In this document: piece after piece, positions 46,001 through 50,705 of the stretch
Layout: every line of letters begins with the position of its first letter
Numbering within the stretch: position 1 is the stretch's first letter
DNA from: Myxococcales bacterium
GTDB taxonomy: Bacteria > Myxococcota > Myxococcia > Myxococcales > UBA5297
Assembly (NCBI GenBank): GCA_049841135.1
Contig: JASGHK010000008.1
Coordinates: 83,272 to 147,271, forward strand
Length of the DNA: 64,000 nt
Direction of reading: 5' to 3'
Made by a program: the position numbers and the translations under genes
The notes under the pieces: model-generated
Database searches by the model: none
What the model was told of the DNA's origin: nothing
What the model saw: only the letters and a program-made list of their open reading frames with translations

Positions 46001-47122
<1,122 letters not shown>

Positions 47123-47125
47123 CCT

Positions 47126-47152
47126 TCACCCCGAGCTCGTCGAGGGGTCAGA
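47126..47152. repeat. 27-nt motif copy 3 (ttcaccccgagctcgtcgaggggtcag) directly after the recA stop
   Basis: See 19297..19324. Confidence 0.7.
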
Positions 47153-47167
47153 GTTTGCCGAAAGGCC

Positions 47168-47210
47168 GCCGGCCGGGCCGCCACGTGCGTTTCGGCCGGC
47201 TCGTTTTTTT
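47168..47210 (+). terminator. rho-independent terminator candidate for recA
   Basis: gccggccg (47168-75) pairs with cggccggc (47193-200) and is followed by tcgTTTTTTT (47204-10). Confidence 0.55.
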
Positions 47211-47572
47211 GTCACTGGGCGGCGACGTGGAGGGTAGTGCCGGGCTTCCACGCCCGGGGCATCTTTGTGAACCGTGCATCGGTGGCGCGCGGGCTCCCCA
47301 CCAGCCGCGCCACAGACGAACGAATCGTGAGGATGCCCCCGGCGTGGAAGCGCGTGGAAGCCGGGCACTACCCAGCTGCGCCACAGACGAACGAATCGTG
47401 AGGATGCCCCCGGCGTGGAAGCCTCTTGATTCATCACATCTAGGGACGCCGCCGCGGCGCGCACCTCAGATTTCGCTGGCGTCACAAACAGCCGTGTGCC
47501 ATACGGTGGGGGGGTGGAGCCATCGAACGCGCCGTTGCTTCGCTATCGCAACCGAGTGATCGGCGAGGCGGA

Positions 47573-48511
47573 GTGCGGTTCATTCGGGACACGGTTGACC
47601 GCCAAGACGCCAGGACCCGGTCCGATCTTGCTCGAGCTATCTGCAAGGCGTGGGATTGGCGACAGGCCAACGGCAGCTACGCCGTCTTCGCCTGCCAGGA
47701 CTTGCTCCTCCGGCTTGAGGAGTGGGGCCACATCAAGCTACCTGCGCGACAGCGCCGGTGCCGAGATGGGCACGATCTACCGGTATTGCCGCAGGACTGC
47801 ATTCCGCTGGCGTGGTCTCCGGTGGGGAACGACGCGAATCTTGACCAACTCGTGGTGCGGCCCATCGAGCCCGCCGAGCGTCTGGGCTGGCGACTCTTCA
47901 TCGACCGATTCCACTATCTCGGAGACAAGCCGCTCGTAGGCGAGCACCTGCTGTACGCCGCATTTCTCGAGGGCCAGGTGGTGGCCCTGCTCGGCTGGGC
48001 CTCTGCGACCCTCCATTCGCCGCTACGAGACCGGTACCTGGGCTGGGACAACGACACCAAGCGGCGCAAGCTGCACCTGGTCGTCAACAACGTGCGCTTC
48101 CTCATCCCGCCCTGGGTTCGAGTCGAGCACCTGGCTTCCAAAGTGCTCGGCCGGACCCTGCGGCGCCTGAGCGCGGATTGGCAGGCCCGCTGGAATCACC
48201 CGGTCCTGCTCGCAGAAACTTTCGTCGACCACGCTCGGTTTCGGGGCACGTGCTACCGCGCCTCCAACTGGCGCTATCTGGGCACGACGGCAGGCCGAAC
48301 CCGACGCGGGAACGCCTATCTGCACGAGGGCAGTCCCAAAGGGCTCTACGTCTACGAGCTGCACCGCCAGGCTCGCCGCCGGATGTGCGAGGAGCATCGC
48401 CATGAAGGAGTCGTCGGGGCTGCTGCCGCTGGAGCAGGAGATGGGCCAGGCCAGGCTGGGAGACCGGCGTCTGAATCGGCGTCTGATCGCTGCGGTGGGA
48501 CGCTTGAGTGA
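47573..48511 (+). CDS. IS-associated accessory protein, DUF4338-like (identification from memory; N-terminus uncertain)
   Basis: ICKAWDWRQANGSYAVFACQDLLLRLEEWGHIKLP...FHYLGDKPLVGEHLLYAAF...AETFVDHARFRGTCYRASNWRYLGTTAGRTRRG. Overlaps the transposase start by 110 nt in another frame, inside the IS ends. Confidence 0.45.
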   Translation: MRFIRDTVDRQDARTRSDLARAICKAWDWRQANGSYAVFACQDLLLRLEEWGHIKLPARQRRCRDGHDLPVLPQDCIPLAWSPVGNDANLDQLVVRPIEPAERLGWRLFIDRFHYLGDKPLVGEHLLYAAFLEGQVVALLGWASATLHSPLRDRYLGWDNDTKRRKLHLVVNNVRFLIPPWVRVEHLASKVLGRTLRRLSADWQARWNHPVLLAETFVDHARFRGTCYRASNWRYLGTTAGRTRRGNAYLHEGSPKGLYVYELHRQARRRMCEEHRHEGVVGAAAAGAGDGPGQAGRPASESASDRCGGTLE

Positions 48512-49883
48512 CGAGCCAGCCAAGAGCTTTCCGCAGGCCTTCGAAGACGATGCGGCAGGGCTAGAGGCGCTCTACCGGCTGGTCAACAACCCGAAGCTCA
48601 GCACGGCAAAGGTGCTGCAGCCACATGCACAGGCGACCGTTGCCCGCTGTGTCACGGAGCGGGTGGTGCTGGCGATCCACGACACCAGCAGCGTGGCCTT
48701 CCAGAGCGAGAGTGAGCGCGATGGCCTGGGCCCAGTCGATGGCGGGACCCAAGGCCTCTATCTGCACACGACCCTGATGGCGAGCGCGACGGAGCACTAT
48801 CGGCCGCTCGGAGTCGCGGCGATGAAGCTCTGGGCTCGCCAGCCGATCCCGGACCATCTCCAGGGTGGCGAGAACCACTACCAGCGCAAGAAGGCGCGGC
48901 GGCTTTCGCCCGACAAGGAGTCCCTGCGCTGGAAGGAGCAGATCGACTCGGTTGAGCAGGCGGTGGCGCAACAAGCCCAGGTCCTCCACGTCGGCGACAG
49001 CGAAACCGACGACTACGACCTGCTGGCGCACCTGGTCGAAAAGGGATTCCGGTTCGTCCTGAGGCAGAAGCACAACCGAAGCTTGGAAGGCCCGCCGGAG
49101 AAGAAGAAGAAGCTCATCGAGGCGATCGCCGATGCATCGACGGTGGCAACTCGAGAGGTGCACCTGTCGGCGCGCACGAAGGGCACGACGCCCAAGGCTC
49201 AGGCGACTCATCCGCCGCGCAACGCACGCGACGCCAAGCTGCAAGTCGGCTGGACGAGGGTGTCGCTGAAGAGGCCAGACAGAGCGAGTACGACGCTGCC
49301 GACGTCATTGCCGATCAACGTCGTCTTCGTGCTCGAGAAGGACTGTCCCGTTGGAGAAGATCCCATTCAGTGGGTCCTGTACACGACCGAGCCGGTCGAT
49401 ACCGAAGAGCAGCTTCTCCAAGTCGTCGACTACTACCGCGGCCGATGGCTGATTGAGATGTACTTCGACGCCCTCAAGAACGGATGCGCACTCGAGAAGC
49501 GCCAACTCGAGAGCTTTCACGCCCTCAGCATCGCAATCGGTCTCTTCGCGGCAATTGCCTTTCGCCTGCTGCTCATGCGGACCCTGGCCGAATCGAAGCC
49601 CGACACACCCGCGACCGCGGCACTCTCACCGCTCCAGCTCGACGTGCTCCGCGCCTCGCTGAAGAAGACCAAGCTGTCAGAGGCGCCGACGGCCAAGGAG
49701 GTCTTCTGGGCCGTGGCCGCGTTGGGCGGGCACCTCAAGCACAACGGGCGCCCTGGCTGGCGGACGCTCGGACGTGGCTACGAGAAGTTGCTCATCCTTG
49801 AAGCTGGCTGGCGCGGCGCGCTGAAAGCGCGAAGCGCGTGCTCGGGCTGCCCGGGGACCGCCAGGCGCCCGGACGAGAAGTGA
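48402..49883 (+). CDS. IS4-family transposase, Tn5/IS50-like
   Basis: Collinear with Tn5 Tnp. N-terminal DNA-binding region (LGDRRLNRRLIAAVGRL). DDE core with the YREK signature (PIQWVLYTTEPVDTEEQLLQVVDYYRGRWLIEMYFDALKNGCALEKRQ). C-terminal VFWAVAALGGHLKHNGRPGWRTLGRGYEKL. Confidence 0.85.
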   Translation: MKESSGLLPLEQEMGQARLGDRRLNRRLIAAVGRLSDEPAKSFPQAFEDDAAGLEALYRLVNNPKLSTAKVLQPHAQATVARCVTERVVLAIHDTSSVAFQSESERDGLGPVDGGTQGLYLHTTLMASATEHYRPLGVAAMKLWARQPIPDHLQGGENHYQRKKARRLSPDKESLRWKEQIDSVEQAVAQQAQVLHVGDSETDDYDLLAHLVEKGFRFVLRQKHNRSLEGPPEKKKKLIEAIADASTVATREVHLSARTKGTTPKAQATHPPRNARDAKLQVGWTRVSLKRPDRASTTLPTSLPINVVFVLEKDCPVGEDPIQWVLYTTEPVDTEEQLLQVVDYYRGRWLIEMYFDALKNGCALEKRQLESFHALSIAIGLFAAIAFRLLLMRTLAESKPDTPATAALSPLQLDVLRASLKKTKLSEAPTAKEVFWAVAALGGHLKHNGRPGWRTLGRGYEKLLILEAGWRGALKARSACSGCPGTARRPDEK

Positions 49884-49984
49884 CCAATCCAGAGGCGTGG
49901 AAGCCGGGCACTACCCAGCCGCGCCGCAGACGAACGACTCGGGAGGTGGCCCGGCGTGGAAGCGCGTGGAAGCCGGCACTACGC

Positions 49985-50705
49985 CTATTTGGTGGCGACG
50001 TGGATGGCCACGATACCCATCGACAGCTTCTCGTACTCGACCTTGGCGAACCCGGCCGCACTCAGCTCCGCGGCGAGCGCCGGCGCATCGGGGAAGGCCT
50101 GGATGGAGTTGTGCAGGTACTCGTACGCCGCCCGGTCGCCGGCGATGCGCGCTCCGAAGACGGGCAGGATCTTGCGGACGTAGAGCCAGTAGACGGGCTT
50201 GAAGGGCGCGAAGCCGGGGTGGGTGCAGCTCGAGCACCACGTAGCGGCCGCCGGGCTTGAGCACCCGCTTGACCTCGGCGTAGTTCGCGGGCCGGTCGGC
50301 GAAATTGCGCAGGCCGAAGGAGACGGTGACCGCGTCGAAGCTCGCGTCGGCGAACGGCAGGCGGGTGGCGTCGGCGATGGAGAAGGTGATCCGCTGTCGG
50401 GCAGCCGCGTCGTCGATGCGGTCGATCTTCTTCTTCCCACCGATGAGCATCGCGGCGGTGAAGTCGCTGGAGACGACGAGGCCCGGCTTGGCCTGCTGGG
50501 CGAGCGCGGCGGTCAGGTCGCCGGTCCCGGCGGCGAGATCGAGGACGCGGGCGCCTTCGGAGATGGCTGCCAGGCGCACGGCGCGCTTTCGCCAGGCGCG
50601 GTCGAGTCCCCAGCTGGCGATTCCGTTGAAGCGGTCGTAACCGCCGGCAATCTTCGTGAAGAGGGCTTGGACCTTCTCGGGCTCGGCTGAGTGCTGGACG
50701 TTCAT
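49985..50705 (-). CDS. ubiE: demethylmenaquinone/ubiquinone methyltransferase UbiE/MenG, apparent +1 frameshift in the C4 run near 50212-50215
   Basis: KVQALFTKIAGGYDRFNGIASWGLDRAWRKRAV...VLDLAAGTGDL (SAM motif)...FDAVTVSFGLRNFADRPANYAEVKRVLKPGGRYVVLELH. Shifted frame continues PGFAPFKPVYWLYVRKILP...LSMGIVAIHVATK, matching the UbiE C-terminus. Confidence 0.8.

What the first reader, a model, noticed from the sequence alone, without database searches (positions are those of the whole stretch)
47216..50004. Tn5/IS50-like IS4-family element with a DUF4338-like partner ORF and unusually complex ends, inserted next to the ubiE stop codon
The transposase (48402-49883) is collinear with Tn5 Tnp and is preceded, within the same ends, by a 312-aa ORF. 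Both ends carry a 20-bp inverted terminal repeat plus about 75-bp direct subterminal repeats. The unit GCGTGGAAGCCGGGCACTACCCAGC-CGCGCCRCAGACGAACGA-TCG-GAGG-TG-CCC-GGCGTGGAAGC occurs 1.5 times at the left and about 1.3 times at the right. A candidate 11-bp target duplication ggcgacgtgga sits at 47221-31 and 49994-50004, the latter inside the last ubiE codons. Tn5-type elements normally have simple 19-bp ends and no second conserved ORF. This partner gene and the nested direct repeats are worth a closer look, for example as transposition-regulator binding sites or a hitchhiking cargo gene.
Basis: partly seen in the sequence, partly recalled or inferred. Interest (0 to 1): 0.55.

Follow-up and report, generated by a model that had tools for sequence, protein, structure and literature searches.

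The report
Tn5-like IS carrying Mom-like enzyme gene
This is a real 2.5-kb Tn5-type jumping gene; its odd "complex ends" belong to the repeat-rich DNA it landed in, and its extra gene encodes an enzyme resembling phage Mu's DNA-modifying protein Mom that also rides with at least nine other transposase families, which appears to be undescribed.

Summary
The two ORFs are real. ORF2 (48402-49883) is an IS4-family, Tn5-like transposase. ORF1 is a DUF4338/DruA-domain protein.

The true IS ends are inner 20-bp inverted repeats (47422-47441 and 49876-49895, 16/20 matching). They resemble the IS50 inside end and are flanked by a perfect 10-bp direct repeat, GCGTGGAAGC. The 71-nt repeats and the outer 22-bp inverted repeat lie outside the IS, in a hairpin/tandem array. 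The whole array is absent from the recA-ubiE spacer of a relative. The "11-bp target duplication" is part of a duplicated ubiE 3' end and is not a transposition footprint.

ORF1 has an N-terminal helical domain and a GNAT core. The core's best structural match is phage Mu Mom, and Mom's catalytic Ser and Tyr are conserved.

Related ORF1 genes sit directly upstream of transposases of several families: IS4, IS66, IS1182, ISKra4 and IS701. Many overlap the transposase start, and some are fused to transposases (Tn5-type, ISAs1, ISAzo13, IS701-type, IS66). In multi-copy genomes they lie inside the mobile unit, with clean target duplications. I found no paper describing this association.

The function is inferred: a nucleic-acid-modifying accessory enzyme working with the transposase.

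The parts
47423..49894 (+). The insertion sequence proper. It is about 2,472 bp with ends taken as CTCTTG...CAGAG, or 2,474 bp (47422-49895) if the C/G pair is included. GC is 65.2% against 70.1% for the window.
   Evidence: IR alignment and flanks; homology with L018/L019/L099 starts at the IR; GC
47422..47441 (+). Left terminal inverted repeat, CCTCTTGATTCATCACATCT. It resembles the IS50 inside end CTGTCTCTTGATCAGATCT.
   Evidence: Top PWM hit in the window, 36.7 bits. Same motif at the ends of L018, L019, L099, L102 and L103. The IS50 end sequence is from my own knowledge.
49876..49895 (-). Right terminal inverted repeat, CCTCTGGATTGGTCACTTCT on the minus strand. It matches the left IR at 16/20 and contains the transposase stop codon.
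47413..47422 (.). Left copy of the target-site duplication GCGTGGAAGC ('t'), 9-10 bp.
   Evidence: Perfect 10-mer abutting both IS ends. Relatives L102 (9 bp, GGCCCAGCC) and L099 (8/9) show the same geometry.
49895..49904 (.). Right copy of the target-site duplication GCGTGGAAGC.
47477..47502 (+). Conserved upstream motif TGGCGT-N14-TGCCAT (dyad TGGC...GCCA), about 10 nt before the likely ORF1 start. It is a candidate promoter or operator of the DUF4338 cassette.
   Evidence: Present with identical spacing upstream of ORF1 homologues whatever the transposase partner, and in solitary copies. No canonical sigma-70 call.
47514..48511 (+). ORF1, the DUF4338 (DruA-domain) protein: N-terminal helical domain, linker and Mom-like GNAT core. 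The likely start is GTG 47514. This copy has a 1-nt deletion near 47572, so the uninterrupted ORF is 47573-48511 (312 aa). The last ~110 nt overlap ORF2 in another frame.
48402..49883 (+). ORF2, the IS4-family Tn5-like DDE transposase (493 aa). It has the signature YRGRWLIEMYFDALK, i.e. Y-2-R-3-E-6-K.
   Evidence: NF033590 310.6 bits, Tnp_DNA_bind, DDE_Tnp_1; motif read from the translation
47232..47373 (.). Long imperfect palindrome/hairpin outside the IS. It consists of an inverted unit (Q' t' P'), a loop, and a direct unit (P t t Q). The second 't' (47342-47351) is bulged.
   Evidence: the repeat finder I1, I4; DNA fold -59.6 kcal/mol, z=-4.95
47281..47422 (+). Two tandem 71-nt units left of the IS: unit A 47281-47351 and unit B 47352-47422.
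49895..49982 (+). One 69-nt unit plus a truncated unit right of the IS: unit C 49895-49963 and unit D 49964-49982.
47342..47361 (.). IS-less junction GCGTGGAAGC-GCGTGGAAGC. It is a tandem copy of the same 10-mer that flanks the IS, and a candidate excision footprint.
   Evidence: inference
49954..49973 (.). Second IS-less junction GCGTGGAAGC-GCGTGGAAGC.
   Evidence: inference
47391..47403 (-). Pseudo-end CCTCACGATTCGT, a 13-nt look-alike of the outermost IR, lying 9 nt upstream of 't'. A twin lies at 47320-47332 and a diverged copy at 49934-49946.
   Evidence: Best non-IR hits of the terminal-13 PWM in 64 kb: 16.1 bits against 17.9 for the true right IR and 12.5 for the next best
47211..47234 (-). 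Displaced copy of the ubiE 3' end. It reads TLHVAAQ-stop on the minus strand and lies next to the recA/ubiE terminator.
   Evidence: Alignment with the empty site of the relative L108
49985..50008 (-). Current ubiE 3' end (IHVATK-stop).
   Evidence: (D10)

Best explanation
The window holds one copy of a ~2.47-kb IS4-family, IS50/Tn5-like insertion sequence (47423-49894).

Anatomy (shown):
- It has 20-bp terminal inverted repeats and a 9-10-bp target duplication (GCGTGGAAGC).
- It carries two genes. The first is an accessory gene for a DUF4338 protein, with an N-terminal helical (probably DNA-binding) domain and a Mom-like GNAT core. The second is the transposase.
- The IS inserted by ordinary cut-and-paste into a hairpin/tandem-repeat array. 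That array, absent from a relative, had itself been inserted into the last codons of ubiE. The 71-nt repeats, the outer 22-bp inverted repeat and the 11-nt repeat belong to this array and its junctions, not to the IS.
- The accessory gene is a portable cassette. It has its own conserved upstream motif and has been recruited repeatedly by DDE transposases of at least nine families. It usually sits immediately upstream, often with its stop overlapping the transposase start, and is sometimes fused to the transposase.

Function (inferred, not shown): the protein is an acyl- or aminoacyl-transferase that modifies a nucleic acid, most likely adenine in DNA as Mom does. It acts together with the transposase, either marking or protecting the element's DNA or tuning transposition.
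For: Transposase identity.

Inner IRs and abutting 10-bp repeat.
- The same IR type ends the related elements L018, L019 and L099 (perfect 20-bp IRs).
- It also ends the ORF1-less relatives L102 (1,531 bp, 9-bp TSD) and L103.
- No 71-nt unit occurs in any of 109 fetched loci.

Empty site: relative L108 (RecA 92% identical, same recA-ubiE-PEPCK order) has a 154-nt spacer with no array and no IS.

ORF1 as a family:
- More than 2,320 close homologues, mostly on 2-3-kb contigs.
- 10,740 cluster representatives at E<=1e-3.

Partners of ORF1 homologues:
- In 98 loci: IS66 in 54, a DUF6399 protein in 10, IS1182 in 7, ISKra4 in 7, Tn5-like in 4, another DDE protein in 3, ISAs1 fusion in 3, IS701 in 1.
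- Stop/start overlap (ATGA or GTGA) in most IS66-type elements.
- ORF1 lies inside the repeated unit, with 8-bp TSDs, in multi-copy genomes.
- Single-polypeptide fusions exist with Tn5-type, IS701-type, ISAzo13, ISAs1 and IS66 transposases.
- The DUF4338 tree mixes partners within the window's clade, and that clade shares the upstream motif regardless of partner.

Fold of ORF1:
- AlphaFold model, pLDDT 79.
- Pfam Mom passes its cutoff in two family members.
- hhalign is colinear: Mom S124 aligns with invariant S202, Y159 with invariant Y241, and R151 lies next to R235.
- Mom's activity and essential residues come from PMC13219725.
Against: - No biochemical evidence exists for any DUF4338 protein.
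- The window protein itself is below Pfam's Mom cutoff (16.3 against 27.1 bits).
- DUF4338 lacks most of Mom's essential HTH-like insertion.
- The window copy of ORF1 is frameshifted at its N-terminus, so this copy may be defective. The assembly may instead carry indel errors: ubiE is frameshifted too.
- Other copies from the same genome could not be fetched. The ends therefore rest on relatives and on the abutting repeat.
- The 80 genome loci are the best-scoring of 579 and may over-represent IS-borne forms.
- Some 'fusions' could be gene-calling artefacts.
- L018 and L019 share 28 nt outside the IR, which is unexplained.
Confidence: 0.72

Rival explanations
1. First reader's model. The mobile unit runs from the outer inverted repeat (47232) to about 49982. 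The 71-nt subterminal repeats are transposase or regulator binding sites of the IS, and ggcgacgtgga is its 11-bp target duplication.
For: - The outer 22-nt inverted repeats are nearly perfect.
- The whole block, array plus IS, is absent from the relative L108.
- It is bracketed by a 15/17 direct repeat.
- Each unit carries a 13-nt look-alike of the IR tip.
Against: - The inner IRs match the IRs of all related elements and are abutted by a perfect 10-bp repeat.
- Relatives have none of the 71-nt unit.
- The outer direct repeat is 11 nt away from the right outer IR. It is too long and imperfect for a Tn5-type duplication, and it is a copy of the ubiE 3' end with its own stop codon.
- The outer IR is unrelated to the IR consensus.
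Confidence: 0.08
2. ORF1 is mere cargo. It would be a defence or anti-defence gene (a Druantia-type DruA relative or a Mom-like anti-restriction enzyme) that hitch-hikes on ISs and benefits the host or the carrier replicon, with no role in transposition.
For: - It shares the Pfam DruA domain and resembles Mom, an anti-restriction enzyme.
- Solitary chromosomal copies exist between MCP and SMC genes.
- The cassette has its own conserved upstream motif.
- ISs with passenger genes are known in the IS4 family (PMC2266710).
Against: - Its position is fixed immediately upstream of the transposase, with overlapping stop and start.
- It has been fused repeatedly to five transposase types, in either order.
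- It is kept inside small, active, multi-copy ISs.
- The PADLOC DruA model does not match the window-type protein, and no DruB-E genes lie nearby.
Confidence: 0.22
3. The repeat array is itself debris or a by-product of this IS. Each unit would be a decayed right end plus flank, or a preferred target that the IS has visited repeatedly. The two GCGTGGAAGC-GCGTGGAAGC junctions would be footprints of Tn5-type blunt excision rejoined by end-joining. This adds to the best explanation rather than excluding it.
For: - The same 10-mer flanks the IS and is tandemly doubled at the two neighbouring unit junctions. It is single in the inverted arm.
- The extra copy is a bulge in the hairpin.
- The pseudo-IR lies 9 nt from each 10-mer.
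- The array is absent in the relative.
Against: - Only one locus is available.
- Excision footprints of IS4-family elements are not an established phenomenon in bacteria (my knowledge).
- A 71-nt tandem duplication unrelated to the IS could give the same doubled 10-mers.
- The pseudo-IR matches only the first 13 positions.
Confidence: 0.3

Closest known systems
IS50 / Tn5 (IS4 family, IS50 subgroup)
   Same: - The transposase has the same architecture: N-terminal Tnp_DNA_bind, a DDE core and the Y-2-R-3-E-6-K motif.
- The terminal IRs are ~20 bp and resemble the IS50 inside end.
- The transposase stop codon lies inside the right IR.
- The target duplication is 9-10 bp.
- Cut-and-paste transposition is expected.
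   Different: - It carries a second, conserved gene (DUF4338) between the left IR and the transposase. This makes it ~1 kb longer than its ORF1-less relatives (L102, 1,531 bp).
- No Dimer_Tnp_Tn5 domain was detected by Pfam in this copy.
- Transposase identity to the sampled relatives is only 29-47%.
Phage Mu Mom (tRNA-Gly-dependent N6-adenine DNA modification; PDB 8bv8)
   Same: - Mom is the best structural match of the ORF1 core (GNAT fold).
- They share the motif F-x-D...G-x-x-Y-x-A-x-N-(W/F)...G.
- Mom's essential S124 and its Y159 (drastically reduced activity when mutated) are invariant in DUF4338.
- Mom too is encoded at the end of a DDE transposon, phage Mu.
   Different: - Sequence identity is about 19-20%.
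- ORF1 lacks most of Mom's essential HTH-like insertion and has an N-terminal helical domain and linker instead.
- The substrate and donor are unknown.
- It is encoded in small ISs and coupled or fused to the transposase, not expressed as a late phage gene under Com/C control.
DruA of type I Druantia defence systems (Pfam PF14236)
   Same: It shares the DUF4338 domain, scoring 97 bits against Pfam's DruA model.
   Different: - There are no DruB-E genes nearby.
- The PADLOC DruA model (407 positions) gives no hit for the window-type protein and only faint partial hits for other IS-borne members.
- The context is an IS, not a defence island.
Accessory genes shared between IS families (TnpB of IS200/IS605 and IS607; TnpA/TnpB of IS66; IstB of IS21)
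   Same: It is a conserved non-transposase gene kept inside the IS and co-expressed with the transposase. Like TnpB, the same accessory module pairs with unrelated transposases.
   Different: - The fold is different (GNAT).
- It pairs with many more families: IS4, IS66, IS1182, ISKra4, IS701, ISAs1 and ISAzo13, plus probably IS630-like and a DUF6399 protein.
- In one IS66 element it coexists with TnpB rather than replacing it.

Membership tests
IS4 family, IS50/Tn5-like subgroup | Transposase matches the family model above its curated cutoff | tested here: met
   NF033590 transpos_IS4_3, 310.6 bits against a cutoff of 160, covering 1-405/405
IS4 family, IS50/Tn5-like subgroup | N-terminal Tn5-type DNA-binding domain and DDE domain | tested here: met
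   PF14706, 49.5 bits; PF01609, 40.6 bits
IS4 family, IS50/Tn5-like subgroup | Y-(2)-R-(3)-E-(6)-K signature after the catalytic E | tested here: met
   YRGRWLIEMYFDALK read in the translation of 48402-49883. That this motif defines the family is from my knowledge of PMC2266710.
IS4 family, IS50/Tn5-like subgroup | Short terminal inverted repeats with a directly abutting 9-bp (family range 9-12 bp) target duplication | tested here: met
   20-bp IRs matching 16/20, and a perfect 10-bp repeat abutting both ends. Relatives give 9 bp (L102) and 8/9 (L099).
IS4 family, IS50/Tn5-like subgroup | Several copies with identical ends in one genome | not testable with these tools
   At least 10 ORF1 copies are listed for the MAG, but their DNA could not be fetched.
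Pfam DruA / DUF4338 domain family | Match above Pfam's gathering score | tested here: met
   97.3 bits against 27
Druantia type I defence system | DruA encoded in an operon with DruB, DruC, DruD and the DruE helicase | tested here: not met
   The neighbours are recA, the transposase, ubiE and PEPCK. The PADLOC DruA model gives no hit for P0001.
Mom family (PF25680) | Match above Pfam's gathering score | tested here: not met
   The window ORF1 scores 16.3 bits against 27.1. Two fused family members pass: P0263 at 29.6 and P0326 at 28.1.
Mom family (PF25680) | GNAT fold with Mom's essential residues (R111, S124, R151) and Y159 | tested here: inconclusive
Mom family (PF25680) | HTH-like insertion (~175-209) required for activity | tested here: not met
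   A 16-residue gap falls opposite the insertion in hhalign. DUF4338 has an N-terminal helical domain instead.
Mom family (PF25680) | Transfers glycine from Gly-tRNA to N6 of adenine in dsDNA | not testable with these tools
   Needs biochemistry. Mom's activity is described in PMC13219725.
MITE or composite element bounded by the outer 22-bp inverted repeats | Target duplication directly abutting both outer inverted repeats | tested here: not met
   The direct repeat abuts on the left (47218-34) but lies 11 nt from the right outer IR (49982 against 49994). It is 15/17 and is a copy of the ubiE 3' end.

The most novel reading that the evidence does not exclude
DUF4338 is a transposase-coupled, Mom-like enzyme that chemically modifies DNA, using an acyl-CoA or an aminoacyl-tRNA as donor. 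It has spread as a self-contained cassette (own promoter/operator plus ORF) among at least nine otherwise unrelated DDE insertion-sequence families. There it would act in or next to the transpososome, for example by marking the element's ends, the donor site or the target. This would be a new class of IS accessory function and a widespread source of DNA hypermodification in environmental bacteria.
Probability: 0.3. Interest if true: 0.85.

Novelty: new variant of a known kind. Interest (0 to 1): 0.68.

Why it matters
Insertion sequences are usually thought of as a transposase and two ends. The few accessory genes known, such as TnpB, have turned out to be biologically and technologically important.

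Here one conserved enzyme gene, related to the only known tRNA-dependent DNA-modifying GNAT (Mom), is found inside active ISs of many unrelated families across Myxococcota, Acidobacteriota, Desulfobacterota, Chloroflexota and others. It is often translationally coupled or fused to the transposase.

If it modifies DNA, it would link transposition to base hypermodification. It would give DUF4338/DruA, including the Druantia component, a testable biochemical function. It might also explain systematic sequencing errors in IS-rich genomes.

For genome annotation, the finding corrects the ends of this IS. It also shows that 'DUF4338 domain-containing protein' next to a transposase marks one mobile unit.

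Tried and rejected
- Same-genome copies: exact-protein look-ups of P0001, the window ORF1 and the transposase found nothing on record.
- Genome scan with the transposase alone found no relatives. The profile scan with ORF1 worked.
- The metagenome scan with a transposase profile gave only six loci.
- Outer inverted repeats as IS ends, and the 11-mer as target duplication: rejected.
- The 71-nt unit as a known RNA: no Rfam match at E<=1 in 46900-50300.
- The unit elsewhere: none in the window or in 109 loci.
- Canonical sigma-70 promoter upstream of ORF1: none.
- Sequence search of solved structures with the ORF1 profile: no hit at E<=10.
- ORF1 as a Druantia DruA: rejected.
- First clustering of the downstream ORFs merged families, because stop-to-stop ORFs overlapped the conserved DUF4338 DNA in another frame. 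It was redone on trimmed ORFs.
- Literature: no paper in the library links DUF4338, DruA or Mom-like proteins to insertion sequences.
- A programmed frameshift joining ORF1 to the transposase in this element was considered and set aside. It would need a +1 shift, and no slippery site was examined.
- The afdb50 fold library was unavailable.

Full report
**What is in the sequence**

The region lies between recA (46001-47122, + strand) and a ubiE/menG-type methyltransferase gene on the minus strand, followed by PEPCK. ORF 48402-49883 is an IS4-family, Tn5-like transposase. It scores 310.6 bits on NF033590 against a cutoff of 160 and has Pfam Tnp_DNA_bind and DDE_Tnp_1 domains. Its translation contains YRGRWLIEMYFDALK, the Y-2-R-3-E-6-K signature.

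ORF 47573-48511 matches Pfam DruA/DUF4338 (97.3 bits, E=1.2e-27) and faintly matches Pfam Mom. Their cores occur nowhere else in the 64 kb, against zero matches expected by chance.

**Where the IS really ends**

The sequence CCTCTTGATTCATCACATCT (47422-47441) and the reverse complement of 49876-49895 (CCTCTGGATTGGTCACTTCT) match at 16/20 positions. From memory, they resemble the IS50 inside end (CTGTCTCTTGATCAGATCT). The right one contains the transposase stop codon.

Both ends are abutted by the perfect 10-mer GCGTGGAAGC, at 47413-22 and 49895-904. Several related elements bear on this:

- **L018 and L019** carry ORF1 at 66-69% and the transposase at 46-47% identity. Their homology to the window's left end is clear from this IR inward.
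- **L099** has a perfect 20-bp IR pair, CCTCATGATTCTACAGATCT, with an 8/9 flanking repeat.
- **L102 and L103** are Tn5-like ISs without ORF1. They end in the same IR type. L102 is 1,531 bp with a perfect 9-bp duplication.

A position matrix built from these IRs, which include the window's own two ends, ranks those two ends first and second in the window. None of 109 fetched loci contains the 71-nt unit. The IS is therefore 47423-49894, about 2.47 kb, with 65.2% GC against 70.1% for the window.

**What the 'complex ends' are**

Write t = GCGTGGAAGC, Q = CGGGCACTACCC and P = the 39-nt remainder of the unit. The flanks then read: inverted (Q' t' P'), loop, P t·t Q P t [IS] t Q P t·t Q(truncated).

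The stretch 47232-47373 folds as a long hairpin (-59.6 kcal/mol, z = -4.95). The second t is bulged out in that fold.

A relative with 92% identical RecA and the same recA-ubiE-PEPCK order (L108) has only a 154-nt spacer. It holds a different 47-nt tandem repeat, and has neither the array nor the IS.

Aligned with that empty site, the window has two copies of the last ~23 nt of ubiE:

- One copy lies next to the terminator (47211-47234) and reads TLHVAAQ-stop.
- The other is contiguous with ubiE (49985-50008) and reads IHVATK-stop.

It abuts the outer inverted repeat only on the left. It therefore marks the insertion of the whole array into the ubiE 3' end, not a Tn5-type duplication. How the array arrived is not resolved.

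**Two observations tie the array loosely to the IS**

First, the two IS-less unit junctions carry t twice in tandem, while the occupied one has t on each side of the IS and the inverted arm has t once. This is what blunt Tn5-type excision followed by end-joining would leave. It is an inference from a single locus.

Second, each unit contains CCTCACGATTCGT, 9 nt from t. This is the best non-IR match in the whole window to the outermost 13 nt of the IR consensus: 16.1 bits, against 17.9 for the true right IR and 12.5 for the next hit. The array may be a preferred target or old debris of this IS. I rate that at about 0.3.

**The partner gene is part of the IS, and part of many ISs**

ORF1 has more than 2,320 close homologues (57-70% identity), mostly on 2-3-kb contigs. 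An exhaustive profile search finds 10,740 cluster representatives at E<=1e-3. The source MAG lists at least ten copies, in 325-aa and 312-aa versions.

In 98 loci holding a homologue, the gene immediately downstream was classified as follows:

| Downstream partner | Loci |
|---|---|
| IS66 transposase | 54 |
| DUF6399 protein | 10 |
| IS1182-like transposase | 7 |
| ISKra4-like transposase | 7 |
| Tn5-like transposase | 4 |
| Another DDE protein | 3 |
| ISAs1 transposase, fused | 3 |
| IS701 transposase | 1 |
| No transposase (solitary copies) | 2 |

Further points support a real association:

- In most IS66-type elements the ORF1 stop overlaps the transposase start (ATGA or GTGA).
- In multi-copy genomes the repeated unit includes ORF1 and has clean target duplications. 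One case is a 2,336-bp IS66-type element in Thermodesulfobacteriota B35 with 8-bp duplications AGGCGTTT and GCGTCAGC. Another is a 4,461-bp IS66 element in a Bryobacterales MAG in which ORF1 sits between tnpB and tnpC.
- Single polypeptides join DUF4338 to Tn5-type (P0310, P0330), IS701-type (P0307), ISAzo13 (P0362) and ISAs1 (P0263, P0294, P0326) transposases.
- RefSeq protein WP_216644545.1 is annotated 'ISAs1 family transposase', yet tblastn places ORF1 residues 103-285 under that CDS.
- In the reverse order, DUF4338 is joined to IS66 transposases (P0315, P0363).
- P0310 is colinear with both window ORFs.
- A neighbour-joining tree of DUF4338 places Tn5-like, DUF6399, IS66, other-DDE and solitary copies in the window's clade, while the Tn5-linked L099 lies far away. 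Partners have therefore been swapped.
- Members of that clade share an upstream motif, TGGCGT-N14-TGCCAT, about 10 nt before the start codon, whatever the partner (window 47477-47502). It is not a canonical sigma-70 promoter.

**What the protein looks like**

The AlphaFold model (pLDDT 79) shows three parts:

- a small N-terminal strand/helix domain (residues 1-63);
- a low-confidence linker;
- an alpha/beta core (residues 107-290).

hhalign of the family against Mom is colinear, though its probability is low. After correcting the numbering offset:

- Mom's essential S124 aligns with invariant S202.
- Y159 aligns with invariant Y241.
- R151 lies next to the nearly invariant R235.

Mom transfers glycine from Gly-tRNA to N6 of adenine in dsDNA, and needs an HTH-like insertion to do so (PMC13219725). 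DUF4338 lacks most of that insertion and has an N-terminal domain instead.

An Aravind-lab paper also calls DUF4338 a GNAT (PMC10853773). The PADLOC DruA model does not match the window-type protein, and no Druantia genes are nearby.

**Mechanism**

Shown:

- ordinary IS4-type architecture and insertion;
- ORF1 inside the mobile unit;
- tight coupling or fusion of ORF1 to transposases of many families.

Inferred:

- ORF1 is an active acyl- or aminoacyl-transferase acting on a nucleic acid, most likely DNA adenine.
- Its N-terminal domain binds DNA, possibly the conserved upstream dyad.
- It works with the transposase, either to protect or mark the element's DNA or to regulate transposition.

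The cargo-only alternative (a defence or anti-restriction gene hitch-hiking) remains possible, at about 0.2.

**Caveats**

- The window copy of ORF1 has a 1-nt deletion near 47572 relative to P0001.
- ubiE also carries a 1-nt insertion relative to the relative. These may be real lesions or long-read assembly errors.
- Other copies from the same genome could not be read.

**Novelty**

The IS itself is a new member of a known family. The recurrent pairing of a Mom-like GNAT with many transposase families is, as far as the searchable literature shows, undescribed. I could not consult ISfinder.

Noticed in passing
window 49985-50705 (minus strand), indel near 50224: ubiE is split into two overlapping ORFs by a 1-nt insertion relative to the relative L108 (gagctgCacc against gagctg-acg). 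This is either a pseudogene or an assembly indel error.
   Followed up: partly
window 47123-47165; L108 1400-1530; L109 1359-1607: A ~47-nt unit (CTTCACCCCGAGCTCGTCGAGGGGCCAGAGTTTACCGGCCGC) directly after the recA stop is present once in the window, three times in L108 and at least five times in L109. It is a copy-number-variable tandem repeat.
   Followed up: no
window 47342-47361 and 49954-49973: The 10-mer that flanks the IS as its target duplication is doubled in tandem at the two neighbouring IS-less unit junctions. These look like cut-and-paste excision footprints.
   Followed up: partly
window 47320-47332, 47391-47403 (minus strand); diverged copy 49934-49946: Each repeat unit contains a 13-nt look-alike of the tip of the IS inverted repeat, 9 nt from the duplicated 10-mer. 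These are the best non-IR matches in 64 kb.
   Followed up: partly
window 47477-47502; same position in L001, L002, L005, L014, L018-L020, L022, L024, L025: The motif TGGCGT-N14-TGCCAT is conserved upstream of DUF4338 genes regardless of which transposase follows. It is a candidate operator or non-canonical promoter, possibly of a leaderless mRNA.
   Followed up: partly
L018 554-581 and L019 321-348: Two elements from different organisms share ~28 nt (TTGGTGGSGGCAGGCCTCYGKG) just outside the left IR. This is either an extended end or a shared target sequence.
   Followed up: no
L004-L013 (e.g. L005 1055-2776): A 573-aa protein with a C-terminal DUF6399 domain follows DUF4338, with a 4-nt overlap, on many short contigs. 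It may be an unrecognised transposase family.
   Followed up: no
L001 5001-6002; L002 5001-5999: Solitary DUF4338 genes (63-65% identical to ORF1) lie between a chemoreceptor gene and an SMC gene. They keep the upstream motif but have no transposase, so they may be domesticated or stranded copies.
   Followed up: partly
L058 4028-8488: A 4.46-kb IS66-family element carries TnpB_IS66, DUF4338, the IS66 transposase and a serine resolvase. It has at least six copies in one Bryobacterales MAG, with 8-bp target duplications.
   Followed up: partly
L055 4676-4945 against L062, L064, L075, L076: In the Desulfospira genome the ISKra4-type DUF4338 element has a ~121-nt segment, just upstream of the common 2,361-bp core, that is offset or duplicated in one copy. 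The true left end was not defined.
   Followed up: no
L105 (Thiodictyon plasmid pTs485) 3971-8743: A DUF4338 gene and an IS4-family transposase gene are separated by an inserted integrase/IS91 pair. The whole is flanked by two halves of a DUF2235 gene, so this is a nested insertion.
   Followed up: no
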